A DNA stretch of 37,433 nucleotides from a virus (lineage: Duplodnaviria; Heunggongvirae; Uroviricota; Caudoviricetes). A program made the translations under genes and the position numbers. Position 1 is the stretch's first letter. Each line of letters opens with the position of its first letter. The notes beneath the pieces were generated by a model. It was not told the DNA's origin. It did no database searches and saw nothing but the letters and a program-made list of their open reading frames with translations. Shown in pieces: positions 1-37,433 of this stretch. Where the stretch lies: IMG/VR virus record IMGVR_UViG_2563366989_000001. One strand, given 5' to 3'.

Positions 1-657
1 TTATGAACTATAATAAGTCCTAATCTTTACAGATGAAAGCATAATCTTCCAAGCTTGATCGCTACCCAACCACTCATCGTTGGTTGGTTCATTATCACCA
101 GATACTACATAAGTATCTGGCATATCAAAGTCTATATTGCAAAGGTCTTCTCCTTTGCGCTCCTTAAAAATAAGAAGATCTATTTTTGTTGTTGGGAATT
201 TTTTATCCAAAACACTTCTCAGTTTATACACAGCATCTCGTTCTGCATTCAATCTAACGAGTAAAACACGTTCCGACTCATTGATTTTCTCTATAAATCT
301 TTTTCTTCTCGCCTTTATTTTTTTCATCATATTAAACAAGCAGACTTCAATACCTTGTTTTTCATAGTCATCAATAAGAATATCGTGAATACTTCGAAAT
401 CCAGTCGCTGTATCTGTGATATCAATACAATTTTTAAATCTGCCATTAATTTTTATATTTTCAGGCAAGAAAAGGTGGTCGCACCCCTTATTAATTATTT
501 TTGTAACTTGAGGTAGTTTTTGAGAGGCAAACCAATCAAATGGTCCACTAAATGTCCTCAACCCAAATCGCTTTAACCTTCCTGCTGGTTGACATTTTTT
601 ACCAAGGCTTGCTATAAAATCATACTCTCCACAAGGAAGAAAAAGGCCTTTATTCAT
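1..657 (-). CDS. Hypothetical cargo protein with GPFDW motif, possibly DUF1796-like (recalled family); function unknown
   Basis: ORF 1..693; ATG at 657 has AGGA 7 nt upstream, alternative ATG at 693; stop at 1-3; AT-rich composition unlike the phage core. Confidence 0.5.
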   Translation of the reverse strand: MNKGLFLPCGEYDFIASLGKKCQPAGRLKRFGLRTFSGPFDWFASQKLPQVTKIINKGCDHLFLPENIKINGRFKNCIDITDTATGFRSIHDILIDDYEKQGIEVCLFNMMKKIKARRKRFIEKINESERVLLVRLNAERDAVYKLRSVLDKKFPTTKIDLLIFKERKGEDLCNIDFDMPDTYVVSGDNEPTNDEWLGSDQAWKIMLSSVKIRTYYSS

Positions 658-774
658 ATGATTTTCCTTACATTTTATGACGACAAAAATCATAACATTG
701 CCTTATTAATCAGTCAAACAGTTAACAAAAGCAAACAAACAAGTAAGCACATTGTTGATAATTTGTTTATTTTT

Positions 775-1389
775 ATGTTTTTGTTATCTATACCATTTTT
801 TTCATTTGCTTCTGATACAAACAAAACGCCACCATATCGCATGAGGGAGTCGATGTTTGAGTTATTAAAGGAGCAAAGGGATATTGTTATGCTTGGCGAT
901 AGCATAACCGCGCGAGGAGAGTGGAATGAGCTTCTTCCTAGTTTATCTGTAGCAAATAGGGGCATTGGGGGAGATGAAGTTAAATTTATGAAAAGAAGGA
1001 TTGATTCTATATTTTTATTAAAGCCCAAATATGTATTCATTATGGGCGGAACAAATGATTTCAGAAGAAAAAGAAGTGTTGATGATGTGGTTCGTGACTA
1101 TAAGCATATAATAAAAAAACTACACAAACACAGAATTAATGTATTCATTCAGTCCACCCTTTACGTGTCAAGAGAAAGCAGGTTAAATGACAACATAAAA
1201 ATATTAAAATTAAATAATGCAATAAATAACTATTGCTCTGTATCTAATTATTGTCGTTTCGTAGATCTTAACGTGCACATGGCAAAAGATAGAAAAATAC
1301 TAGCTAAGTATAGCGATGATGGAGTCCATCTAAATGGTAATGGGTATTTAATGTGGGCGTCAATCATATACCCTTTAATTAAAAAATAA
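775..1389 (+). CDS. SGNH/GDSL-family hydrolase (esterase/acyl-modifying enzyme), probably secreted
   Basis: GDS block (MLGDSITA), GGTND block and DGVHLN block in correct order; hydrophobic N-terminus MFLLSIPFFSFA; start uncertain (ATG 775 or ATG 658 in the same frame; the listed 589 start is TTG). Confidence 0.55.
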   Translation: MFLLSIPFFSFASDTNKTPPYRMRESMFELLKEQRDIVMLGDSITARGEWNELLPSLSVANRGIGGDEVKFMKRRIDSIFLLKPKYVFIMGGTNDFRRKRSVDDVVRDYKHIIKKLHKHRINVFIQSTLYVSRESRLNDNIKILKLNNAINNYCSVSNYCRFVDLNVHMAKDRKILAKYSDDGVHLNGNGYLMWASIIYPLIKK

Positions 1390-1396
1390 GAATAGT

Positions 1397-1427
1397 AAAA
1401 AACCATCTCATTATGAGGTGGTTTTTT
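1397..1427. terminator. Bidirectional intrinsic terminator between convergent cargo gene and tailspike gene
   Basis: Hairpin ccatctca/tgaggtgg (one G-U pair) flanked by an A-run upstream and a T-run downstream. Confidence 0.65.
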
Positions 1428-1508
1428 ATATAGAATAAAGCAATAGAGGTTTATTTTATTTGTTTATCATGGCTTAATGCACTAGCACTTTAATTGAAAA
1501 AACTATAT

Positions 1509-3908
1509 TTATTTTAGTATCCATCCGGTATTTCCTGTTCCTGTTTTTTTTTGATACCAATCACCATTATAATCAATGTACATTGACCCCTGAGGTGCGG
1601 TCACAACACCCTCAGGTGAACCGGAGCCTCTATAAATTCCAAAGAGAGTTGTACCTCTTACTTTCTCGTATGCAAACAACAAACCATCTGAAGCCCTTCT
1701 GATACGCAACGGTTCGTGCTCTGAGTCCGATGCAAATGTAGTGGTGCCGTTTGAATCTGTTTCCCTGGAAAAACTTCCATCTGTTCTTGTTCCTTCAATG
1801 ATCGAATTTGGGTAGTTTGGATCATCAGATGAATGTAACCTAATATAGGAACTATTTGATGCTGATACCCCCCTCCCCCTTAAAATCAATCCCTTAAATG
1901 ATGACGTAAATAGTGCCTGGATTGAGCCATAAACAGTGTTATCACTACCGTTTTGCTGATCGTATATTCTTAGTCTTGAGCTATTATCATACATAATAGC
2001 GTCGAAGTACTCACCAAGACGTTCGCTAAATGCAACAATATTAAAAGCATTGCGCCATCTAAATGATATATTTCGCCCGCTTTCTCCGGCATCTACACCT
2101 GCATTACTTGAAGCATTGGTTATGCCAGAATTAAGGTTCTGCTCATCGTTGTTACCAGTCGCTGGTCGTATAGAGTAAATTGTCTTTTTCTCAAGAGAAT
2201 AGCTACTTCCCCATCCATAATCTGTATCAGGACTCCAGTCTCCAGAATTTGCATCCTTGGTTGTTTCCACCCAATAAGAGCCATTTGATGGAGGAACACC
2301 AATTATTCCAGAAGTCTCAATAGATGATGCAGCCCATCTTCTTCCACGCCAGTTTACAATATTAGCTCCTGCCCTCCATGTTTCTATGCAGCTTATAATT
2401 ATTTCTTCGCCACGAATAGTTAAACCTTCCGGCTCGAATCTGGCTGGATTCCCAAGAGTTGGATGGTTAAGCAACCCATCGCGCCCATATTGCGACCTTG
2501 CATCATCGATATCTAATTTTCTTAGTAAATTACCTGTTAAATCATATGTAAAGATATGATGCTTTCCAAAAGCATTAGTGCCTCCCTTAAGTATATGTAT
2601 ATATCTTCCATCAGACGCAATACCTTGTACAGAGTAAGCGCCTTCAGAAGGTGAGTCGCTCATTTCCCAAACAAACATGGGGTTTGCTAATGTTTTATCT
2701 TCAAGTTTATCAATTGATATTTTATCGTATATAAATACAGTTCGTTTAGCGGCATCACTCTTTGGTGTATTAACCATTATTAAAAGACGACCGTCAGAAG
2801 AAATGGCAATTCCTGCACGATTGTAATCTTGAAATGGGTGACCGCTACCAGTAATCCCCCATACATTATAACTTTTTACGTCAGACTGAGTTGTTCCTGC
2901 CCCTCGCCAAGTTATTTTACTAAACCCTTTGCCTGCAGACTCCCCATCTTCACCTGAATTGGTTACACTTGATGTATATAAATATACTTGACCATTCTCC
3001 ACCATGGCAGAAAGATCAAATCCGTGCCCAAGGTTTAATTCTGGAGAATACGCAACATGGTTTACTACCCTTCCATCATCATAAAGATTAAACTCAACAA
3101 TACGAACTCTTTCTTTATCCGACCAGGTTGGCCCAACAGGCCGTTGTGTGACAAATAGTTTTTCAATGCCATTAACACGGCAATATGCGATCCCCTGTAA
3201 CGCATTTCTGGCATTAGGATAAATTTCTGTGTTTGTTTCTCCCTGAAAACCAAAAAAAGGTTCCATCATTTTTCTCTGCGCAAGTTTGTCAGTTTCAAGT
3301 AGACGAGAAACGGAAATAAGAGAGCCATTATCTGCAACAATCCTCCCAATACCTCGAGCAGAAGATACATCAACTTCGAGAGTATTTACTGCAAAATCGC
3401 CATCAGGAACAAACATTCTATAGCCTGCGTTAGAGAATGCCTCAGTAGCGTCAGTTATTCCATCACTGATAGCCCCCCAACCGCGAACATCTTTGTCATC
3501 ACGCCATCGTGCAATCTGCAATTCGGGATATTTTTTAGCACCATCCGGGTCTTCTAACTGCTGCCGTAGCTGATCCGGGTCATACTTCAGCACATTAGGG
3601 AAATAGAACTGCTGAGTGCCATATGCATCATATACAGCCATAGAATGGCCTTGAACAGTTACGAATTTGGCAATCTGCCCGTTATATACCGGATATCCAG
3701 CAGCGTTAATGATGATTGGCTGCGAAACAGGAACATGAGAGCCGTCTTCGTTCTCTACATAAACCTGAATCTGGTTTTCTGGACTTACCGGGTCAGTGTC
3801 AATTTTTCCGATATAAATTTTGCCGTTGGCTACTGCTTTAAAAGAACGCGCCATAGTGAAGAGTTGCGAAGGCATACTCACTACAACATTGGCTGTAATG
3901 TCTGTCAT
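1509..3908 (-). CDS. Tailspike protein: P22 gp9-like N-terminal particle-binding domain fused to a divergent receptor-binding/enzymatic domain
   Basis: First ~110 aa ([11 protein letters not shown]...[12 protein letters not shown]...[13 protein letters not shown]) match the P22 tailspike head-binding domain as recalled; the remainder does not resemble the P22 endorhamnosidase. Confidence 0.85.
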
Positions 3909-4072: not shown

Positions 4073-6466
4073 CTATTCTGACAACGAATCAGACTTAGCC
4101 CCCTGCGTCAGAGCGTTAATTGCCTTTTGTGCCTGCTGCATTGCTTTCTCAAAGGCTGTTGATCCGCGTGGGGTGTTTGCCATTCTGAGCATTGCATTTC
4201 TGAATGGTTCGCTCTCATAGGCGCGAGTAAGAAGTCCGTAGCTTACTGCTGCGCCAGTTGTCGCCGGGTTCATTGCCGTCCCATACCCGATAATGAACGG
4301 GATGGTTTGCTGCCCTGTGGGTGTTGTTACTGCCGCTTTTGCTGCCTGCTGAGTGGACTGAAGGTAATTTTTCAATCCTTTCAGATAAGCAGCATCCTGC
4401 CCCTTAAATGTGATGCCAGTCTGGTTTTGCAGGATGTTAAGCTGCCGAAGGAACTGGTCAGGGGATCCGCCAGATTTCTCCATCGCCTTTCCAATGATGC
4501 CATTGCGCATTTGCGCCCTGCCAACACGACCAACTGAGTTATACAGCGTCTTAATTTCCGATTTGTTCTTGCTGAATAGCATGTTGTTGACAATTTCCGG
4601 TGTCAGGTCGCCTTTCATGAGAACATTCTTCAGCCTGGTATTCTTTAGTTTCGCCGCTTCGTCAGCGTAGACGGCATTGGCCTGCTGATATTTACGGAGA
4701 GTATCGTTGCCAAGATTATGACCAATGGCACCATTGATATCGTCGGTCATCGCCTTGTAAACGCGCTGAATGGCAGCATCGGAACGGTTTGGTAACACTG
4801 GTCGCTCACCCTTCACGTCCATTCTGAACTGACTGCGCAGGTCGCTTAATTGCTTCAAATCCAGATTTACCGGACCATCAGGGCCAGCATTGCGAACAAG
4901 CTCATCATGATATGACTGAAGTTTTGAAATTGTCTCGTTATCAGCAACCTTACCAAGCTTCTTCAGATTAGATATCTCAGTATCAATCTGCTGAATTGCT
5001 CGCGCAGGCTGGATATTGACTCCCGCCATTGCATTCTGAACCTGCTCAAGACGGTTCCCTGCAGCACGACGAATTCCTGATGTTTTCGCTTTAAGGCTGT
5101 CAATAACAACAGCTGGATCATACTCACCGAATTTATCAGCAAATCTCTGCACCAACTGGCTTCTCGCTTCCTGTTGCGTTGCTCTCATTCCGCTTGTGCC
5201 AGCCAGGGGGATATTTTCTGCTGTCGTTTGCGCCATTTTTCCGACGCGGGAAGTAGGCTGTAACAGGTCTGTGGTGTGCAGAGGCACTCCTTCACGCTCT
5301 GCAAATCTGATAGCTTGCTGCGCTTCTGGCGCGATAGCACCACGAACGCCACGATAAGCAGCACCTAATCCACGTCCGGCAGCGTTAATAGCACCGCCAG
5401 CAAGTACACCAACGCCTAAATCGGTGGCGAGTGCTTCCGCATCATCTTTCGCACTATTTGCAGCAAGTGATCCAACTGCGTTTTCTGCTAGAAGGCGAGT
5501 TGCCCCCTGAGCAATTCGACCAGCAAGTGTTGGTGCCTGTGTTGCCGCTCTCTCAATGCCAGCAGGAGTGAGGTAAGGCAATGCTTCAGCAAATACCCTT
5601 CCCTCTGTCGTTTGTGGAGTCAGCGCGCCTTGCTTAAGTCCAAAGTCTTGCTCTAATCCCTGCGTTGTTACTCGTGGTGCTGGTTGATATGTACCATCGC
5701 CAATACCGAGTTTACCGCCAGCCCAAGCCGCCGCGCTTGTTACAGCATCAGTGAGTTCAGCAGGTATGTTCGCTACGTTGATTCCTGCCTGTAGTAAGCC
5801 GCGCCCGGTTTCAGCAAGTCCATTACCAAGGTCATACATTATTCCGCCTTGCTGCTGAACAGGTTTCGGTGCGACAGAACTTACGGGTTGAGGTGGCTGC
5901 TGACTGGCTGCCTGCTGCTCAATCTGAGCAAATGGATTATTTGGGTCTGACTGCACGCCTGATGCCGATACTTGTTCGGATGACTGTGCTTCCAGTTGTG
6001 CAAACGGGTTGTTAGGGTCTTGCTGAGGATGTACCTTTGCAGAGGTGGCGCGCTGTTCGACTGTTGAGTCTGTCACCGGGTCACCCGCCCATTGAGCAAA
6101 GCGATCATCAACGTAACCGCGGCCTTCAGGTCCTGGCGTATATTCGCCACGCTTTGCCTTCATAACGTTGCCGGGACCGTCGTGATAAGCCTGAAGAGCG
6201 TCACGCCAGTTACCAAACTGCTGGTACATCTTTGCCAGATAGCGCGCGCCAGCGTCAGCCTGATATTCGGGGTTTTGCATTTGCTCATCGGTATAACCCA
6301 TATCACGCCATGTCCCAGGCATGACCTGAGTCAACCCTACAGCCCCGGCGGAGCTTACTGCGGCAGGGTTGTAAGAAGACTCCTTGGCACCCAGTGCAGT
6401 CATCAACCCTTCTGGCACACCGTAACGTGCGCCAGCCTGCTCTAACAAATCACGGTAATTAGCCAT
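4073..6466 (-). CDS. Ejection (injection) protein in the gp16 position, with an N-terminal SLT-type lytic transglycosylase domain
   Basis: 797 aa; N-terminal GVPEGLMTALGAKESSYNPAAVSSAGAVGLTQVMPGTW transglycosylase motif; last of three ejection genes before the tailspike. Confidence 0.75.
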   Translation of the reverse strand: MANYRDLLEQAGARYGVPEGLMTALGAKESSYNPAAVSSAGAVGLTQVMPGTWRDMGYTDEQMQNPEYQADAGARYLAKMYQQFGNWRDALQAYHDGPGNVMKAKRGEYTPGPEGRGYVDDRFAQWAGDPVTDSTVEQRATSAKVHPQQDPNNPFAQLEAQSSEQVSASGVQSDPNNPFAQIEQQAASQQPPQPVSSVAPKPVQQQGGIMYDLGNGLAETGRGLLQAGINVANIPAELTDAVTSAAAWAGGKLGIGDGTYQPAPRVTTQGLEQDFGLKQGALTPQTTEGRVFAEALPYLTPAGIERAATQAPTLAGRIAQGATRLLAENAVGSLAANSAKDDAEALATDLGVGVLAGGAINAAGRGLGAAYRGVRGAIAPEAQQAIRFAEREGVPLHTTDLLQPTSRVGKMAQTTAENIPLAGTSGMRATQQEARSQLVQRFADKFGEYDPAVVIDSLKAKTSGIRRAAGNRLEQVQNAMAGVNIQPARAIQQIDTEISNLKKLGKVADNETISKLQSYHDELVRNAGPDGPVNLDLKQLSDLRSQFRMDVKGERPVLPNRSDAAIQRVYKAMTDDINGAIGHNLGNDTLRKYQQANAVYADEAAKLKNTRLKNVLMKGDLTPEIVNNMLFSKNKSEIKTLYNSVGRVGRAQMRNGIIGKAMEKSGGSPDQFLRQLNILQNQTGITFKGQDAAYLKGLKNYLQSTQQAAKAAVTTPTGQQTIPFIIGYGTAMNPATTGAAVSYGLLTRAYESEPFRNAMLRMANTPRGSTAFEKAMQQAQKAINALTQGAKSDSLSE

Positions 6467-7798
6467 TTACTGCCCCAAAGATGGAAGATATCCGTAGCGA
6501 TTAATGAAGTCGATTGACAGCTCGGGGTGCTGCTTCAGGTAATCTATAGAAGCCTGAGGCGCTTCCACTCGCTTGATGCCGTTTTGCTGAACGTACTTAC
6601 CAACCGCCTCATTACGCTTCTGGTTGAGCGTGTTCAGAATGACGCCAGCGTTGCGACGAAAGGACTCCTCGCTCTGCGAGTTCTGCAGCGAACCAACAGC
6701 CTGGTCGAGCTTTTTGCCCTCGGCATCAGAAAGTGCGCCCATGCCTCGCATGGCCTGAACCGCTGTCAGGTATGCTTGTGATTTAAAGGTATCAAGTCGT
6801 GCCTGAGTGTCTGCAGCCTGTGAGCCTGGAACGTTGGGGATTACTCCACGTAAGCCTGTAATGCTCTTAAGTGAAGGAGAACTAACGATATCGTTCAGAG
6901 TGAACATGCTGGTTGTGAGGGTGTTGATGCCGTCTTTGTAGCCATCATTTAGCGCTTGCTGCTTCTGCTGCAACTGCTGGTTGTTGGCTGCTATGCGGCT
7001 CTGTATTTCCTGGCGCTTCAGGTCGTTAGTTTCTGCTGATAGCATCCGGTCAAGGCGCTTATTTTCGTTGTTAATGCGGTTTGTTTCTGCGTCCAGATTA
7101 ATGCGCTGCTGACCTAAATTCGCCTGGATATCTTGTCCGCGCATTGTGATTGCCTGATTCCGAGCGGCGGTTTGCGAATCCAGATCCTGACCGCGCATGG
7201 TAACCTGGCGACCCTGCATTTTATCCTGTAGGTCAAAGTATTTTTCGGGCCCGAGACTGTTCATCCCTAGGTGATCGACAAATTCGCCGAACTGCCGCGG
7301 GTTCTGTTGGTACATCTGAGCGACGTCATGAGGATTAACGCCAACACGAGCTAACTCACCGGCGTTGTTTTGCAGCCATGATTGCATTGCTTCTGGAGAC
7401 GATGACGCAAGGCGTGCGCCAGCCGCTAAGGTGCCGATAGAATTACGCTGATCTTCATCAATGAATCCCATGCCTTTACGAACGGATTCAATCTGGTCTG
7501 GATATTGAGTAGCCAACTGACGCAAGGCACCGCGATCACCAGACGCATAAGCATTAGCGTATGCCTGCTGAAATTCTTTCTGCCGCTGAGCCTGCTTTTC
7601 CTGCTGAAAAACACTCGCTATACCTGAAAGACCTTGCAAAGCAGTCAGCCCAACATTGTTAGCGCCTGAACGCTCAAAATCATTGTTCTGCCTGATAAGC
7701 TGAAGCGTATTGCCGATGTCATTTACGCTAGGAGCGTTTGAGTTGACGCCACCGATACCAGCCAACAATCCGCCATTTGATCCTTGCCAAGTAGCCAT
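6467..7798 (-). CDS. Ejection protein (P22 gp20 position)
   Basis: 443 aa, Q/N-rich with coiled-coil character; conserved order gp7-gp20-gp16 upstream of the tailspike. Confidence 0.65.
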   Translation of the reverse strand: MATWQGSNGGLLAGIGGVNSNAPSVNDIGNTLQLIRQNNDFERSGANNVGLTALQGLSGIASVFQQEKQAQRQKEFQQAYANAYASGDRGALRQLATQYPDQIESVRKGMGFIDEDQRNSIGTLAAGARLASSSPEAMQSWLQNNAGELARVGVNPHDVAQMYQQNPRQFGEFVDHLGMNSLGPEKYFDLQDKMQGRQVTMRGQDLDSQTAARNQAITMRGQDIQANLGQQRINLDAETNRINNENKRLDRMLSAETNDLKRQEIQSRIAANNQQLQQKQQALNDGYKDGINTLTTSMFTLNDIVSSPSLKSITGLRGVIPNVPGSQAADTQARLDTFKSQAYLTAVQAMRGMGALSDAEGKKLDQAVGSLQNSQSEESFRRNAGVILNTLNQKRNEAVGKYVQQNGIKRVEAPQASIDYLKQHPELSIDFINRYGYLPSLGQ

Positions 7799-7807
7799 GA
7801 TTACCCC

Positions 7808-8503
7808 TTAAAACAACGAGCCAAGCAGGCCAAGCCCGCCACCAATTGCCGCTCCTAATCCAGTACCAAGTCCGGGAACAATAGAGCCAAGAGCAGCGCC
7901 AGTCATAGCCCCTGAAGCTCCGCCGCTAATTGCTGTCTGAAGACCTGATGGTTTATTGGCATTAGCAGCGGCAAGAGCCGCACTTTGCTGCGAAATCTGA
8001 CTCATGTTGTTGGCATATGTCTGCCCGGCGTTTGCCTGACCTTGCAGTGCGCCAAGACCAATATTTGCCAGATTCTGGTAGTTGTTCATCTGACCAGACA
8101 GCCACTGCTGACCAAGCGTTGGTGCGATTGTTGCTAACTGATTACCGGTTGCAGTGGAACCCAATCCACCTGTTGCTTCCGCTGCAGCCAGACTCTGATA
8201 GCGAGCCTGACCAGCAAGATCTTTGTACTGCTGAGAGTTGTAATACTGGTTAAGTGCCTGACCTTGCCCATGAAGAGAGGAAAGATTCTGCAATTGTGAT
8301 ACGTACTGCTGAGCGAGTGGCGTGAACGGAGCAAGGTTTTTCATGATCGTCTGCCACTGCTTATTCTGCAGGTCTGCGGCATACTTCTGAGCTTCTGCGG
8401 CATACTTTGCGCTTTTATCAGAACTGCCACCTTTCCCGCCTTTTTCAGGGCAATAAGGTTCCTCGCCGCGCAGTTTTCTGCCCAGCGTAAATGCATATAA
8501 CAT
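7808..8503 (-). CDS. Ejection protein (P22 gp7 position)
   Basis: 231 aa (P22 gp7 about 229 aa), Gly/Ala-rich C-terminus; synteny. Confidence 0.6.
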   Translation of the reverse strand: MLYAFTLGRKLRGEEPYCPEKGGKGGSSDKSAKYAAEAQKYAADLQNKQWQTIMKNLAPFTPLAQQYVSQLQNLSSLHGQGQALNQYYNSQQYKDLAGQARYQSLAAAEATGGLGSTATGNQLATIAPTLGQQWLSGQMNNYQNLANIGLGALQGQANAGQTYANNMSQISQQSAALAAANANKPSGLQTAISGGASGAMTGAALGSIVPGLGTGLGAAIGGGLGLLGSLF

Positions 8504-8505
8504 GG

Positions 8506-8961
8506 CTATCTCCCGTGATTCAGGAAGTCGATTAGTTCTTCGCGTGTGGCGCTGTAAAACGTCACGTCATCCACGCCTTTGAAGTATTTCTTGATGGTTC
8601 CTACACGCTTAAGGCCAATCATTGCGCAGTACATCTGCCCGTGGCGGAATTTGCGTGCAGCAAATGATGTGACGCACTGAACGGTGGTGTTGGTCAGAAT
8701 GTATCGCCAGAACGCCAGCCCGATTTCCTTGCTGAAGCCGCGAATCTCTGGCAGGTACATGGCGTGGCAATCGAGGGTCAGCGGCTGAATCTCCTGATAG
8801 TAAACAATGCCGCCGAACTGCCCGTGCACGTTCACCTCAAAGTAACGGCATTCAGGCTTGTAGTCGTATCCATCACCGTTGTTGCTTCCGGCAATAATGT
8901 CAGGGTGATTTCCGACTGCTTCGATCAGGTCGATGTTTCGCGTTGGTTTGAACTGAATCAT
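8506..8961 (-). CDS. Virion-associated protein in the P22 gp14 position
   Basis: 151-aa ORF between tail needle and ejection genes; assignment by synteny only. Confidence 0.45.
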   Translation of the reverse strand: MIQFKPTRNIDLIEAVGNHPDIIAGSNNGDGYDYKPECRYFEVNVHGQFGGIVYYQEIQPLTLDCHAMYLPEIRGFSKEIGLAFWRYILTNTTVQCVTSFAARKFRHGQMYCAMIGLKRVGTIKKYFKGVDDVTFYSATREELIDFLNHGR

Positions 8962-9914
8962 TACTGCTCCGCGATTATCTTGATGGTTGTGGCAGTAAAC
9001 GACGCACCATTCGACTGAATGGTTAACGTGCTGCCATTTGTGGCAAGAAAGCCGTCTTTATCCACGCTGAAGAACGTAGCTAACAGGATGTTGTCGGTTG
9101 TTGTCACCGCATTACGACTGCTAACCAACGTGTCAGGAACAGAACCGGACAAGGTTAGCTGCATTGACCTGTTAGCGGTTCCGCTGGGCCACGTCCCGAC
9201 GATCGACAGCTTGAAGAACAAGGTTTTGTTCTCGTTGAACACAACCATCTTGTTGTTAACGGTGTCGAAGAATGGTGCCAACGTTCCGGATGACGGCGTG
9301 AGCGTTTTCAGCAGGCTAACAAGGTTAGTCGGCGCTGTCGGGATGGTTACAGATACTCCTGAGTAAACAACCTCTGATTTCTTGCGCGTGGTGGCATACT
9401 CAAGCGCAGATATTCTTGTTGAGTGATCACCAACTGTGCTTTGTAGCGTCGAAATACTTCCTTCTGCCGCTGTGAGCCTGGTATCAAGTGCGTCGATATC
9501 GGTTTTATTCTGAGTTATGCGCGCATCATGGTTTGCTAACTCAGATTCATTGGCAGCAATTCGTGTCTCGTGATCAGCCAGCTCTGTTTCAGCAGCCGTA
9601 ATCCTTGTTTCATGATCTGCAAGAGTGCTTTCCGCTGCTGCAATTCTATGTTCATGATTGATGAGAGTTGCTTCAGCAGCTTCAATTCTGGATTCATGGT
9701 CTGCAAGGGTGACATCCTGCTCATCATTCTTCACCTGTGCATCATAAGCCCCCTTCCCTGCTTCGTTGGCCTTGTTAGCCACGTTACCAACATCAGTGCC
9801 CTGTGCGATAACGTACAGCAGATATGACTGCGAGAAGATATTGCGCGGAAGGACTGATGTGTCGAGCCGCGTAGCCTGGATGATTACCGGCTCATTGAGA
9901 TTCGAATCAGCCAT
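8961..9914 (-). CDS. Tail needle protein (P22 gp26/Sf6-type) with repeated coiled-coil segment and C-terminal knob
   Basis: Tandem repeats of about 14 aa ([12 protein letters not shown] variants); 317 aa, longer than P22 gp26, consistent with a knob domain. Confidence 0.7.
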
Positions 9915-20423: not shown

Positions 20424-20499
20424 TGGTGCTGGTTAACGGACTTGAACCGCTACCCATTCGCTTACAAGGCGACTGCTCTACCATTGGAGCTAAACCAGC
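20424..20499 (-). tRNA. tRNA-Thr (anticodon UGU)
   Basis: Hand-folded cloverleaf: perfect 7-bp acceptor stem, D-arm GCTC/GAGC with GG in the loop, anticodon loop CTTGTAA, T-loop TTCAAGT, encoded CCA end. Confidence 0.7.
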
Positions 20500-20504
20500 A
20501 TGTT

Positions 20505-20579
20505 TGGCGGGACAGCGTGGACTCGAACCACGATAAGAAGATTAACAGCCTTCCGTAATGACCTTTATACGACTGACCC
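20505..20579 (-). tRNA. tRNA-Asn-like (anticodon GUU), imperfect; possibly a degenerate or phage-adapted tRNA
   Basis: Anticodon arm GAAGG-CTGTTAA-TCTTC and T-arm CGTGG-TTCGAGT-CCACG resemble E. coli tRNA-Asn; acceptor stem has a U-U mismatch, D-stem only 3 bp; encoded CCA. Confidence 0.5.
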
Positions 20580-35837: not shown

Positions 35838-36083
35838 ATGAGCGAAGTTAACTTAATTGTGCCCAACGACTGGGTGACAGAGCAAAAACTGATCGAAATT
35901 ACAGGTTTACGCCCAGGAACCATAGAGAGAGCACGTAAACAATCCTGGCTTGTTGGTCGTGAATATCTCCATGTTGCACCGGACGGTATTCCAAAAGAAA
36001 ACAGCGAATGCATGTATAACCGCAAGGCTATCGACCAGTGGGTTGAGAGTATGTCAAAAAAACAGCCTGGTGCGCGTCGATGA
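35838..36083 (+). CDS. xis: Excisionase-like protein
   Basis: Immediately upstream of int; EQKLIEITGLRPGTIERARKQSWLVGREY helix-rich segment; ATG 35838 with GGAG 6 nt upstream. Confidence 0.65.
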   Translation: MSEVNLIVPNDWVTEQKLIEITGLRPGTIERARKQSWLVGREYLHVAPDGIPKENSECMYNRKAIDQWVESMSKKQPGARR

Positions 36084-36128
36084 AGAACCGTTTATGCTTA
36101 ATGCGCTCTTGGGCGTCAGGAGGGAACA

Positions 36129-37433
36129 ATGGCTAAGACAGCATACCCAACAGGCGTTGAGAACCATGGCGGATCACTCCGCATATGGTTCATGTATAAA
36201 GGCACACGAGTGCGGGAAAGTCTCGGTGTGCCGGATACACCAAAAAACAGGAAAATAGCTGGCGAGCTACGAGCATCTGTTTGTTTTTCCATTAAGACGG
36301 GTAATTTCGACTATGCCGCTCAGTTTCCGGACTCTCCCAACCTGAGAAAATTTGGTGCGGAAAGTAAGGAAATTACCGTCGCAGACCTGGCTGAGAAATG
36401 GCTGGATCTGAAAAAGCTGGAAATCAGTACCAATGCGATGGGGCGTTACAGCTCCATTGTAAGAAATATGGTTCCCCGAATCGGAGGCAACAGACTTGCA
36501 TCTGCTGTGACTCAGGAAGAGCTACTGTTCATACGAAAGGATTTGCTGACCGGATATCACGTTCTGAAACGCGGGCAAAAAACACCCATTAAGGGACGTT
36601 CCGTGCCAACTGTTAATAACTACATGAACACCATGGCGGGGATGTTTCAGTTCGCAGCCGACAGCGGATACATCAAAGAAAATCCGTTCGCAGCCATTTC
36701 GCAACTGAAGAGATCACGAACGGAACCTGATCCGTTAACCCGTGATGAATTTGTCAGGTTGATTAACGCATTTAAGCATCAGCAATTAAAAAATATGTGG
36801 TCACTGGCTGTTTATACGGGAGTTCGCCACGGAGAGTTGGTTTCTCTGGCATGGGAAGATATAGACCTGAAGGCTGGGACAATGACGATCAGAAGAAACC
36901 ACACATTAACGAAAGAGTTCACTCTTCCAAAAACCGAAGCGGGAACAAACCGTGTTATCAACCTTATTCAACCTGCAATAGACGTGCTTAAGAATCAGGC
37001 TGAAATGACACGGCTTGGTAAGCAGTATCAGGTTGAAGTGAAACTTCGTGAGTATGGTCGAACTGAAATGCATCCGTGCACTTTTGTTTTCAATCCGCAA
37101 ATCGTTACGCGTAATGGCCTTGCCGGGCACCATTATGCAGTTGGGTCGATTAATCAGTCATGGGAAACTGCAATGCGACGCGCCGGGATTCGCTACCGCA
37201 AAGCATATCAGTCCAGGCACACTTATGCATGTTGGTCTTTGACCGCTGGAGCTAACCCTAACTTCATCGCGAAGCAAATGGGACACTCTGATGCTCAGAT
37301 GGTTTATCGCGTTTACGGATCGTGGATGGCAGAAAACAATCAGGATCAGGTATCCATTTTAAACCAGAAATTGAGTGAGTTTGCCCCATCCATGCCCCAC
37401 GCTGTGGAATCGGATGTAATTAAACAAGTATAG
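36129..37433 (+). CDS. int: Tyrosine-family integrase
   Basis: 434 aa; catalytic signature TGVRHGEL, SRHTYACW and GHSD...VYRVY (R, H-x-x-R, Y); stop codon is the last triplet of the window. Confidence 0.9.
   Translation: MAKTAYPTGVENHGGSLRIWFMYKGTRVRESLGVPDTPKNRKIAGELRASVCFSIKTGNFDYAAQFPDSPNLRKFGAESKEITVADLAEKWLDLKKLEISTNAMGRYSSIVRNMVPRIGGNRLASAVTQEELLFIRKDLLTGYHVLKRGQKTPIKGRSVPTVNNYMNTMAGMFQFAADSGYIKENPFAAISQLKRSRTEPDPLTRDEFVRLINAFKHQQLKNMWSLAVYTGVRHGELVSLAWEDIDLKAGTMTIRRNHTLTKEFTLPKTEAGTNRVINLIQPAIDVLKNQAEMTRLGKQYQVEVKLREYGRTEMHPCTFVFNPQIVTRNGLAGHHYAVGSINQSWETAMRRAGIRYRKAYQSRHTYACWSLTAGANPNFIAKQMGHSDAQMVYRVYGSWMAENNQDQVSILNQKLSEFAPSMPHAVESDVIKQV

What the first reader, a model, noticed from the sequence alone, without database searches (positions are those of the whole stretch)
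1..1389. AT-rich two-gene cargo island beside the tailspike: secreted SGNH hydrolase plus divergent unknown gene
Both genes are markedly more AT-rich than the phage core and sit where P22-like phages carry serotype-converting genes (established for P22 gtrABC and Sf6 oac). The plus-strand gene has the three SGNH/GDSL blocks and a hydrophobic N-terminus, suggesting a periplasmic or surface esterase/acyl-modifying enzyme. The partner gene has no obvious catalytic motif I can name. Together they could be an undescribed lysogenic-conversion module that modifies the surface polysaccharide the phage's own tailspike recognises.
Basis: partly seen in the sequence, partly recalled or inferred. Interest (0 to 1): 0.75.

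Follow-up and report, generated by a model that had tools for sequence, protein, structure and literature searches.

The report
Phage-borne capsule-modifying gene pair beside tailspike
A P22-like E. coli prophage carries, next to its tailspike, two AT-rich genes (an exported SGNH esterase and an uncharacterised DUF1796 enzyme) that in Pseudomonas sit inside a capsule locus matching the E. coli host's own, so they most likely alter the capsule the phage recognises.

Summary
Window 1-657 (-) encodes a DUF1796 protein and 775-1389 (+) an SGNH/GDSL hydrolase. Together they have GC 0.33, against 0.48 for the phage core.

The pair is phage DNA. It stays beside the tailspike in prophages that use three different integration modules. 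In CUS-3 the same slot holds neuO.

- **Capsule origin.** The same divergent pair, next to an exported propeller protein, sits inside kps-type capsule loci of Pseudomonas. The polymerase genes of those loci are orthologous (53-72% identity) to the K24-type kps locus of the E. coli hosts. The E. coli locus lacks the pair.
- **Host association.** 26 of the 30 listed cargo-bearing genomes carry that rare capsule locus.
- **DUF1796.** It is soluble and has invariant Cys, Asp and His residues. Its predicted fold is alpha/beta, not papain-like, and no solved structure is close to it.

Best reading: an optional lysogenic-conversion module that changes ester (probably O-acetyl) decoration of a teichoic-acid-like capsule. 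The chemistry is inferred, not shown. I rate it a new variant of a known kind.

The parts
1..657 (-). DUF1796 gene (218 aa). A soluble cytoplasmic protein with family-invariant Cys22, Asp41 and His91.
   Evidence: ORF and start. Pfam PF08795, E=7e-16. Invariant residues in 114 family members. No hydrophobic segment, KD19 maximum 0.63. AF2 pLDDT 89.8, alpha/beta fold.
689..717 (-). Sigma-70-like promoter for the DUF1796 gene (TTGACT-17-TATGAT with extended TG).
   Evidence: 10 of 12 consensus match. This is a consensus match only.
658..774 (.). Divergent intergenic control region, GC 0.26.
775..1389 (+). SGNH/GDSL hydrolase gene (204 aa from ATG 775). Alternative starts are TTG 766, and RefSeq's ATG 853, which would remove the export signal.
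   Evidence: Pfam PF13472, E=2e-21. Solved sialate O-acetylesterases 6njc/7pzg, E=4e-23. Blocks I, II, III and V invariant.
775..810 (+). Predicted signal peptide MFLLSIPFFSFA, with cleavage before SDT. It is atypical because it has no basic n-region.
   Evidence: It aligns with canonical signal peptides of homologs, and PPYxMRxSLFE downstream of it is conserved. No dedicated signal-peptide predictor was available.
1395..1429 (.). Bidirectional intrinsic terminator hairpin between the convergent GDSL and tailspike genes.
   Evidence: 16-bp stem, dG -18.9 kcal/mol, flanked by A and T runs.
1509..3551 (-). Tailspike receptor-binding part (residues 120-799): a phi11-Gp45-like five-bladed propeller platform plus distal domains.
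3570..3908 (-). Tailspike P22-type head-binding domain (residues 1-113).
   Evidence: PF09008, E=1e-66. PDB Sf6 and P22 tailspikes.
35838..37433 (+). Excisionase (35838-36083) and tyrosine integrase (36129-37433). They mark the opposite prophage end.
   Evidence: Pfam Arm-DNA-bind_2 plus Phage_integrase. The same module lies next to fliE in OZ040490.

Best explanation
The two genes form an optional, self-contained lysogenic-conversion cargo (a moron) of a P22-like temperate phage. It derives from a module that belongs natively to kps (group-2, ABC-transporter-type) capsule loci making a teichoic-acid-like Kdo/glycerol-phosphate polymer.

**Proposed mechanism in the lysogen**
- The cytoplasmic DUF1796 enzyme uses its invariant Cys, with His and Asp, as an acyl-enzyme nucleophile. 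It acts on the capsule polymer or its precursors at the cytoplasmic face, where group-2 capsules are assembled.
- The Sec-exported SGNH hydrolase acts on ester substituents, most probably O-acetyl, from the periplasmic side.
- The net result is a changed ester decoration of the K24-type capsule. That changes K-antigen structure and how the phage's own phi11-like receptor-binding tailspike engages it. The expected effects are superinfection exclusion and less trapping of progeny.

**Shown here**
- gene identities and intact catalytic motifs
- location inside the prophage, in the neuO/gtr slot
- cargo optional for the virion
- native residence of the pair in orthologous capsule loci
- linkage to one receptor-binding-domain family across phage types
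- association with hosts carrying that capsule locus

**Inferred**
- export of the window's own SGNH copy
- the substrate
- acetyl chemistry
- the direction of each reaction
- the phenotype
For: **1. Position and boundaries**
- In strain 7/2 the order is argW-intS-DUF1796-GDSL-tailspike.
- The 16-bp argW core is repeated after torI at the other end.
- The window carries xis-int at 35838-37433.
- In L008 the cargo end abuts dacD.
- CUS-3 has attL-int-neuO-endosialidase in the same slot.

**2. Moron features**
- GC 0.33 against 0.484, z = -4.35.
- It has its own promoter-like site.
- It has a strong terminator.
- Phage Gally carries the same tailspike (98.8%) without the cargo. Gally still produces virions that lysogenize LF82 (PMC9928086).

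**3. Capsule-locus origin**
- The pair plus an exported PF21311 propeller gene lies inside kps loci in P. taetrolens and P. guariconensis and on two metagenome contigs. In P. paraversuta the pair itself was detected.
- The host E. coli kps region 2 has the same genes without the pair.
- Identities to the Pseudomonas proteins are TagD 72%, TagF-like 60%, GT29-like 53%.
- Gene lengths match the K24 reference cluster.
- K24 contains alpha-Kdop (PMC12887879).

**4. Host association**
- The capsule region 2 occurs in 61-120 of 5426 complete genomes.
- 26 of the 30 listed cargo-bearing genomes are among them. The hypergeometric p is 1e-40 to 1e-49, uncorrected for clonality.
- Hosts of the variant prophage, PK5 and EC19, also carry the locus.

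**5. Linkage to one receptor-binding domain**
- The L007 tailspike is 55% identical to the window's tailspike.
- The L017/L019 siphovirus fibre is 59% identical over residues 104-799 and is followed by the pair.
- The L012 S74-type fibre is 29% identical over about 540 aa and lies beside DUF1796.
- A related tailspike, L022, carries a NeuO-like acetyltransferase (39% identity) in the slot.
- Lytic-looking relatives (L020, L021) carry nothing there.

**6. Receptor logic**
- It matches Bacillus phage GA1 gp12, E=7e-47.
- It is homologous to the capsule-locus propeller proteins.

**7. Enzyme features**
- The SGNH blocks are intact, and the best solved relative is a sialate O-acetylesterase.
- DUF1796 is fused elsewhere to RgpF, a polysaccharide pyruvyl transferase and GT2.
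Against: - No biochemical or phenotypic data exist. No paper in the library mentions DUF1796.
- The module has no membrane acyl-translocase. A cytoplasm-to-periplasm acetyl relay of the PatA/PatB or OatA type is therefore excluded, and the reason for pairing a cytoplasmic with an exported enzyme is unexplained.
- Group-2 capsules are thought to be exported through a closed conduit, so periplasmic access to the polymer is uncertain.
- The window's own SGNH signal peptide lacks a basic n-region. RefSeq starts the gene at M853, behind a good Shine-Dalgarno-like GAGGGAG, which would give a cytoplasmic protein.
- One checked ST405 lysogen, WCHEC4533, carries a different TagF/CDP-ribitol-type kps region 2, though with an 80%-identical propeller gene. 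Three further listed cargo genomes did not appear among the 60 listed capsule hits.
- The host association is inflated by clonal relatedness, because many of the genomes are ST405-like.
- The Pseudomonas loci also carry a hexapeptide acetyltransferase. The pair therefore need not be the acetylating activity.
Confidence: 0.6

Rival explanations
1. Eraser-only module. Both enzymes are hydrolases: a Cys-His-Asp deacylase in the cytoplasm and an SGNH esterase in the periplasm. Together they strip ester substituents from the capsule or its precursors, and conversion works by removing a group the tailspike needs.
For: The SGNH protein is a canonical hydrolase type with all four blocks, and its best solved relative is an esterase. 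The Pseudomonas loci that hold the pair also hold a hexapeptide acetyltransferase that could supply the substrate.
Against: The E. coli K24-type region 2 contains no acetyltransferase, so an eraser would have no obvious substrate there. A related prophage puts an acetyltransferase, which adds acetyl groups, in the same slot. DUF1796 occurs alone next to a fibre in L012.
Confidence: 0.15
2. Unrelated fitness morons. The SGNH protein is a secreted sialate or other glycan O-acetylesterase that helps the lysogen forage host glycans, like the NanS-p esterases of Stx prophages. DUF1796 does something independent.
For: The best solved relatives are gut Bacteroidetes sialate O-acetylesterases, E=4e-23. 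It is established knowledge, recalled here and not tested, that prophage-borne NanS-p esterases exist.
Against: The divergent pairing with DUF1796 is conserved from E. coli phages to Pseudomonas capsule loci. The pair always lies next to a propeller or receptor-binding gene of one family. There is no nan-gene context. The SGNH protein co-diverges with the tailspike receptor domain: 53% and about 47% identity, against 94-96% for DUF1796.
Confidence: 0.1
3. Infection-accessory enzymes. The pair is expressed in the lytic cycle and conditions the capsule, by deacetylation for example, so that the non-enzymatic phi11-like tailspike can bind or progeny can escape.
For: The genes lie next to the tailspike. 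The capsule-locus trio pairs the SGNH protein with an exported propeller. Esterase tailspikes exist in other phages; this is recalled and not tested here.
Against: Gally has the same tailspike, lacks the pair and is infectious. The lytic-looking relatives L020 and L021 lack the pair. The genes are convergent or divergent to the late operon and are insulated by a terminator.
Confidence: 0.08
4. DUF1796 is a papain-like cysteine peptidase, as its Pfam name says. It processes a protein and is unrelated to polysaccharide.
For: The Pfam family title. Cys and His are invariant.
Confidence: 0.05

Closest known systems
CUS-3 neuO (phage-borne K1 capsule O-acetyltransferase of a P22-like E. coli prophage)
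   Same: The genus is the same (Lederbergvirus). The slot between integrase/att and the tailspike is the same. The cargo modifies, or here is inferred to modify, the group-2 capsule that the tailspike targets. A NeuO homolog (39% identity) occupies this slot behind a tailspike related to the window's.
   Different: NeuO is a single cytoplasmic hexapeptide-repeat acetyltransferase with a heptanucleotide contingency repeat. Here there are two unrelated enzymes, DUF1796 and an exported SGNH hydrolase, and no contingency repeat. The capsule is K24-type and teichoic-acid-like, not polysialic acid.
P22 gtrABC and Sf6 oac O-antigen conversion cassettes
   Same: They are AT-rich optional cargo at the tailspike end of P22-like prophages that alters the receptor polysaccharide. 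This is established knowledge; the position was checked here only for CUS-3.
   Different: Those are membrane proteins (GtrA/B/C and the Oac acyltransferase-3 family) acting on O-antigen. No homology to them was seen (Pfam), and the window's DUF1796 has no membrane segment.
Sialate O-acetylesterases and PAF-AH-like SGNH hydrolases (PDB 6njc, 7pzg)
   Same: The SGNH subfamily is the same by sequence (E=4e-23), with all catalytic blocks present.
   Different: The substrate context differs. This gene is paired with DUF1796 and a capsule or tailspike gene, and there is no sialic-acid utilisation context.
Two-component periplasmic O-acetylation systems (PatA/PatB, AlgI/J/F/X, OatA)
   Different: Those systems are defined by a membrane MBOAT or AT3 acyl translocase, which is absent here. 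The window's SGNH protein is of the canonical hydrolase type.
S. aureus phage phi11 Gp45 receptor-binding protein (for the neighbouring tailspike)
   Different: Here the domain is grafted onto a P22 head-binding domain in a Gram-negative podovirus. Homologs are also encoded as exported proteins in kps loci.

Membership tests
SGNH/GDSL hydrolase (Pfam PF13472/PF00657) | Profile score above the curated cutoff | tested here: met
   77.7 bits against a cutoff of 32.9; 44.3 against 23.6
SGNH/GDSL hydrolase (Pfam PF13472/PF00657) | Block I Ser (GDS), block II Gly, block III Asn (GxND) and block V Asp-x-x-His | tested here: met
   GDSIT, NRGIGGD, GGTND and DDGVH are all invariant in 17 homologs
SGNH/GDSL hydrolase (Pfam PF13472/PF00657) | SGNH alpha/beta/alpha fold | tested here: met
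   Full-length sequence homology to the solved structures 6njc and 7pzg, E=4e-23. No separate structure prediction was run.
SGNH/GDSL hydrolase (Pfam PF13472/PF00657) | Esterase or acyl-transfer activity | not testable with these tools
   Needs an enzyme assay
Exported (Sec) protein | N-terminal signal peptide with an h-region and a small-x-small cleavage site | tested here: inconclusive
   An h-region and SFA|SD are present. Homologs have canonical signal peptides, and sequence upstream of RefSeq's M853 is conserved. This copy has no basic n-region, its start codon is uncertain, and no dedicated predictor was available.
DUF1796 (Pfam PF08795) | Profile score above the curated cutoff | tested here: met
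   58.9 bits against a cutoff of 23. The profile search finds 2021 representative relatives.
DUF1796 (Pfam PF08795) | Papain-like cysteine peptidase fold, as in the family's title | tested here: not met
   [not shown]
DUF1796 (Pfam PF08795) | Conserved Cys and His candidate catalytic residues | tested here: met
   Cys22 100%, His91 99% and Asp41 99% of 114 sequences
Lysogenic-conversion cargo of P22-like phages (gtr / oac / neuO type) | Lies inside the prophage between the tailspike and att/int | tested here: met
Lysogenic-conversion cargo of P22-like phages (gtr / oac / neuO type) | Optional for the virion: the same tailspike occurs with and without the cargo | tested here: met
   Gally, 98.8% identical tailspike, no cargo, infectious
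Lysogenic-conversion cargo of P22-like phages (gtr / oac / neuO type) | Atypical composition with its own expression signals | tested here: met
   GC z = -4.35. Promoter-like site. Terminator. Expression itself was not tested.
Lysogenic-conversion cargo of P22-like phages (gtr / oac / neuO type) | Product chemically modifies the receptor polysaccharide and changes phage sensitivity or serotype | not testable with these tools
   Only contextual support: native residence in orthologous capsule loci, and host association
Lysogenic-conversion cargo of P22-like phages (gtr / oac / neuO type) | Homology to Gtr, Oac or NeuO proteins | tested here: not met
   No such Pfam or NCBIfam hits. The enzyme families are different.
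MBOAT/AT3 + SGNH periplasmic O-acetylation systems | Integral-membrane acyl translocase partner | tested here: not met
   DUF1796 has no hydrophobic segment, and there is no other gene in the island.
Anti-phage defence systems (PADLOC) | Match to a known defence protein model | tested here: not met
   No hits

The most novel reading that the evidence does not exclude
DUF1796 is a previously unrecognised class of cytoplasmic Cys-His-Asp polysaccharide O-acyl (acetyl) transferase. Together with an exported SGNH 'editor' it forms a two-compartment capsule-decoration module native to Kdo/glycerol-phosphate kps loci. Temperate phages have captured this module along with a teichoic-acid-type receptor-binding domain. 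The result would be an unrecorded, phage-determined form variation of the K24-type capsule in multidrug-resistant E. coli lineages such as ST405.
Probability: 0.25. Interest if true: 0.8.

Novelty: new variant of a known kind. Interest (0 to 1): 0.66.

Why it matters
- It would give the first functional context for DUF1796, a family with about 2000 representative clusters and no literature.
- It would add a new enzyme pair to the short list of phage-borne capsule or O-antigen converters (gtr, oac, neuO).
- It shows a route by which phages take both a receptor-binding domain and the matching receptor-modifying genes from capsule loci, or exchange them with those loci.
- K-antigen variants that differ only by acetylation, with determinants outside the kps locus, are an acknowledged gap in E. 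coli capsule typing (PMC13171606). This cargo is a concrete candidate for that kind of off-locus determinant in K24-type strains.
- That bears on capsule-targeted vaccines, on serotyping and on phage therapy of ST405-like clones.

Tried and rejected
- **att site between 1389 and 1509, or host DNA.** Rejected. The spacer is a terminator. No argW core lies in the window. The cargo is bracketed by phage genes or att in three layouts.
- **K2a/K2ab or K18/K22 acetylation determinant.** I considered both. The host region 2 matches K24, not K2. The WCHEC4533 locus does not match the K18_K22 gene lengths.
- **DUF1796 as a Cys variant of the SGNH family.**
  - hhalign against the GDSL alignment gives probability 0.2%, so there is no sequence support.
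  - Foldseek against the PDB finds nothing with E<0.1.
- **neuO-like phase-variable repeats.** None found.
- **Defence system.** No PADLOC hits.
- **Literature.** Searches for DUF1796, PF08795 and HI1244 returned nothing. The K24 structure paper and the EK3D paper are not held.
  - The afdb50 fold library was unavailable.
  - The genome-contig scan returned only one locus, because the peptide patterns were strict.
- **The phage record.** ON470594 comes from a bioinformatic study of prophages in clinical isolates and is probably an extracted prophage. It was not used as proof of packaging.
Full report
**1. Observation**

The left 1.4 kb of the window holds two divergent genes.
- The minus-strand gene ends at position 1. 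It most likely starts at the ATG at 657, which has an AAGGA ribosome-binding site and agrees with RefSeq, giving 218 aa.
- The plus-strand gene ends at 1389.

Pfam assigns the first gene to DUF1796 (E=7e-16). It assigns the second to the GDSL/SGNH hydrolases (E=2e-21). The adjacent 799-aa minus-strand gene (1509-3908) has the P22 tailspike head-binding domain (E=1e-66).

Cargo GC is 0.33, against 0.484 ± 0.036 for the rest of the window (z = -4.35). The twelve lowest-GC 650-bp windows of the whole 37 kb all start within 151-1051, inside the cargo.

**2. The SGNH gene**

All four catalytic blocks are present and invariant in 17 homologs: GDSIT, NRGIGGD, GGTND and DDGVH. The nearest solved structures are the sialate O-acetylesterases 6njc and 7pzg (E=4e-23).

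RefSeq starts the gene at M853, giving 178 aa with no signal peptide. I think the real start is upstream, for three reasons.
- The homologs are 205-250 aa long and have canonical signal peptides.
- A conserved PPYxMRxSLFExL motif lies upstream of M853.
- M853 replaces a Leu that is conserved in the other homologs.

The window's copy reads (TTG 766 / ATG 775) MFLLSIPFFSFA|SDT. This is hydrophobic and has a small-x-small cleavage site, but it lacks a basic n-region. I therefore consider export likely (about 0.7), not certain.

**3. The DUF1796 gene**

- The protein has no hydrophobic segment.
- A profile search finds 2021 representative relatives.
- In 114 single-domain members Gly19 and Cys22 are 100% conserved, Asp41 and His91 99%, and Arg34 and Arg117 above 90%.
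- An AlphaFold2 model (pLDDT 89.8) is a three-layer alpha/beta fold.
- Foldseek against the PDB gives nothing with E<0.1.
- Profile comparison with the GDSL family is negative.

The 'papain-like peptidase' label in the family title is therefore not supported.

Elsewhere DUF1796 is fused to RgpF, to a polysaccharide pyruvyl transferase and to GT2 domains. No paper in the library mentions the family.

**4. Phage or host DNA?**

The region 1-1508 is 99.8-99.9% identical in 32 of 5426 complete E. coli genomes. It is also identical in one GenBank phage record, which comes from a bioinformatic study of prophages in clinical isolates and is probably an extracted prophage.

The cargo stays with the tailspike under three different integration modules.
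- **Strain 7/2.** The order is argW-intS-DUF1796-GDSL-tailspike...torI. The 16-bp 3' core of argW is repeated just after torI.
- **The window.** It has an excisionase and a 434-aa integrase at its far end. The same module serves a cargo-less P22-like prophage next to fliE in OZ040490.
- **L008.** The cargo end abuts dacD-sbmC.

The 119-bp spacer to the tailspike is a bidirectional terminator (dG -18.9 kcal/mol), not an att site. The CUS-3 record shows attL core, int, neuO and the endosialidase tailspike in exactly this slot.

**5. Where else the pair occurs**

The divergent pair is a conserved unit.
- It lies inside kps-type capsule loci in P. taetrolens and P. guariconensis and on two metagenome contigs. 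In each locus it sits next to a gene for an exported 330-350-aa propeller protein; three of the four are PF21311 hits and the fourth was matched by BLASTP.
- The pair is also present in P. paraversuta (L018), where only the two genes were checked.
- Those loci also carry KpsC/S/D/E/F, a TagD-like cytidylyltransferase, a TagF-like glycerophosphotransferase, a GT29-like protein, a TPR protein, KdsA and KdsB-phosphatase paralogs, and a hexapeptide acetyltransferase.

The E. coli host's own kps region 2 has the same set: TagD-like, GT29-like, TagF-like, TPR, and an exported propeller annotated 'phage baseplate protein'. It lacks the pair.

Identities to the Pseudomonas proteins are 72% (TagD), 60% (TagF-like) and 53% (GT29-like). 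These are as high as or higher than for the conserved KpsC (44%), KpsS (36%) and KpsF (55%).

Gene order and lengths match the K24 reference cluster of the kTYPr catalogue. K24 contains alpha-Kdop (PMC12887879). Its published structure (Lenter, Jann and Jann 1990) is not held. From memory it is a Kdo/glycerol-phosphate polymer.

**6. Host association**

That region 2 occurs in only 61 (at ≥80% coverage) to 120 (any match) of 5426 genomes. Of the 30 listed cargo-bearing genomes, 26 are among them. The hypergeometric p is 1e-40 to 1e-49. This is strongly inflated by clonal relatedness, because many of the genomes are ST405-like.

Several distinct backgrounds are nevertheless represented. They include the LF82-like 96% variant and the pig strains PK5 and EC19, which carry the second prophage variant.

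One exception I checked, WCHEC4533, has a different TagF/CDP-ribitol-type region 2. It keeps a propeller gene 80% identical to the K24-type one.

**7. Linkage to the receptor-binding domain**

Homologous receptor domains sit beside the cargo in four phage backbones.

| Phage context | Receptor protein | Identity to window tailspike | Cargo beside it |
|---|---|---|---|
| Window (P22-like) | 799-aa tailspike | n/a | DUF1796 + GDSL |
| L007 (second E. coli P22-like variant) | 806-aa tailspike | 55% | DUF1796 (94-96%) + GDSL (53%) |
| L017/L019 (temperate siphovirus) | 912-aa (L017) / 837-aa (L019) fibre | 59% over residues 104-799 | GDSL + DUF1796 |
| L012 (siphovirus-like) | 877-aa S74-type fibre | 29% over about 540 aa | DUF1796 only |

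Three further comparisons bear on this.
- A related E. coli tailspike, L022, is followed by a NeuO-like hexapeptide acetyltransferase (39% identity to CUS-3 NeuO).
- The lytic-looking relatives L020 and L021 carry nothing there.
- Phage Gally, a prophage of LF82 (a strain with the K24-type locus), has the same tailspike at 98.8% without the cargo. It makes virions that lysogenize LF82 ΔGally.

The cargo is therefore optional for the virion. It travels with one receptor-domain family, and only in temperate phages.

**8. Interpretation**

The best-supported reading is a lysogenic-conversion moron captured from, or exchanged with, a capsule locus.
- DUF1796 acts in the cytoplasm, where group-2 capsules are built.
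- The SGNH hydrolase acts after export.
- Together they change ester, probably O-acetyl, decoration of a teichoic-acid-like capsule that the phage's phi11-like tailspike recognises.

The acetyl inference rests on the SGNH subfamily, on the NeuO-like gene in the same slot of a related phage, and on CUS-3. It is not shown.

Three points remain unexplained.
- Why a cytoplasmic enzyme is paired with an exported one when no membrane acyl-translocase is present.
- How a periplasmic enzyme reaches a polymer exported through KpsMTED.
- Why DUF1796 stays 94-96% conserved between the two E. coli variants while the GDSL protein (53%) and the receptor domain (about 47%) diverge together. The DNA similarity breakpoint is near window position 990.

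The rivals are scored separately: eraser-only, unrelated nutritional esterase, lytic accessory, and true peptidase.

**9. Comparison and novelty**

Functionally this is the gtr/oac/neuO kind of phage cargo. It differs in three ways.
- It uses two enzyme families not previously tied to conversion.
- It has a demonstrable capsule-locus origin.
- It is coupled to a Gram-positive-type teichoic-acid receptor-binding domain.

I rate it a new variant of a known kind, interest 0.66.

Noticed in passing
L014:25622-26590 (E. coli 7/2 kps region 2); L027:43463-44422 (WCHEC4533); L003:7847-8842; L005:8121-9125; L006:8076-9122; L010:3142-4152: Group-2 capsule loci of E. coli (K24-type and a CDP-ribitol/TagF type) and of Pseudomonas encode an exported protein of about 320-350 aa. 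It is homologous to phage receptor-binding propeller domains (most are PF21311 hits; RefSeq calls the E. coli ones 'phage baseplate protein'). Its role in capsule biology is unknown.
   Followed up: partly
[not shown]
   Followed up: partly
window 1544-1552: The only homopolymer of 8 or more bases in the whole window is a T9 tract (A9 on the coding strand). It lies inside the 3' end of the tailspike gene, in codons QKKT. It could cause frameshift or phase variation of the tailspike C-terminus.
   Followed up: no
window 35838-37433: The far end of the window carries an 81-aa excisionase and a 434-aa tyrosine integrase. At 99% identity this module also serves a different P22-like prophage next to fliE in OZ040490. 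Near-identical cargo/tailspike ends in other strains use the IntS/TorI (argW) module instead, so the integration modules are swapped between otherwise similar phages.
   Followed up: yes
L023:8164-18470 (strain 7/2): Directly behind the prophage's attR lies a second integrative island. It has its own 428-aa integrase and a rolling-circle replication-associated protein, and it ends in a 23-bp repeat of the argW 3' end. The two elements are integrated in tandem at argW.
   Followed up: partly
L028 (phage Gally, OV696608) 4144-8618: Gally, the LF82 prophage, has the same tailspike (98.8%). In place of the cargo it has only a 95-aa ORF before a different integrase and excisionase. This is a natural cargo-less comparator in a K24-type host.
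   Followed up: yes
L022:4367-5077: An E. coli P22-like prophage next to thrS carries a 236-aa NeuO-like hexapeptide acetyltransferase (39% identity to CUS-3 NeuO). It lies immediately behind a tailspike whose receptor domain is related to the window's.
   Followed up: partly
L029:3030-3727 (ECE204; also JMK_KBN3987): An IS1 element is inserted in the spacer between the GDSL terminator and the tailspike gene in two genomes. Both cargo genes remain intact.
   Followed up: yes
window 20424-20579: tRNA-Thr(TGT) and tRNA-Asn(GTT) genes lie in tandem inside the prophage, between the lysis genes and the late-regulator region.
   Followed up: no
L019:7514-8679: The public gene calls miss the GDSL gene and truncate the DUF1796 gene on this siphovirus contig. 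tblastn finds both (7740-8312 minus strand, 8514-9131 plus strand). Surveys based on gene calls would therefore undercount the pair.
   Followed up: yes
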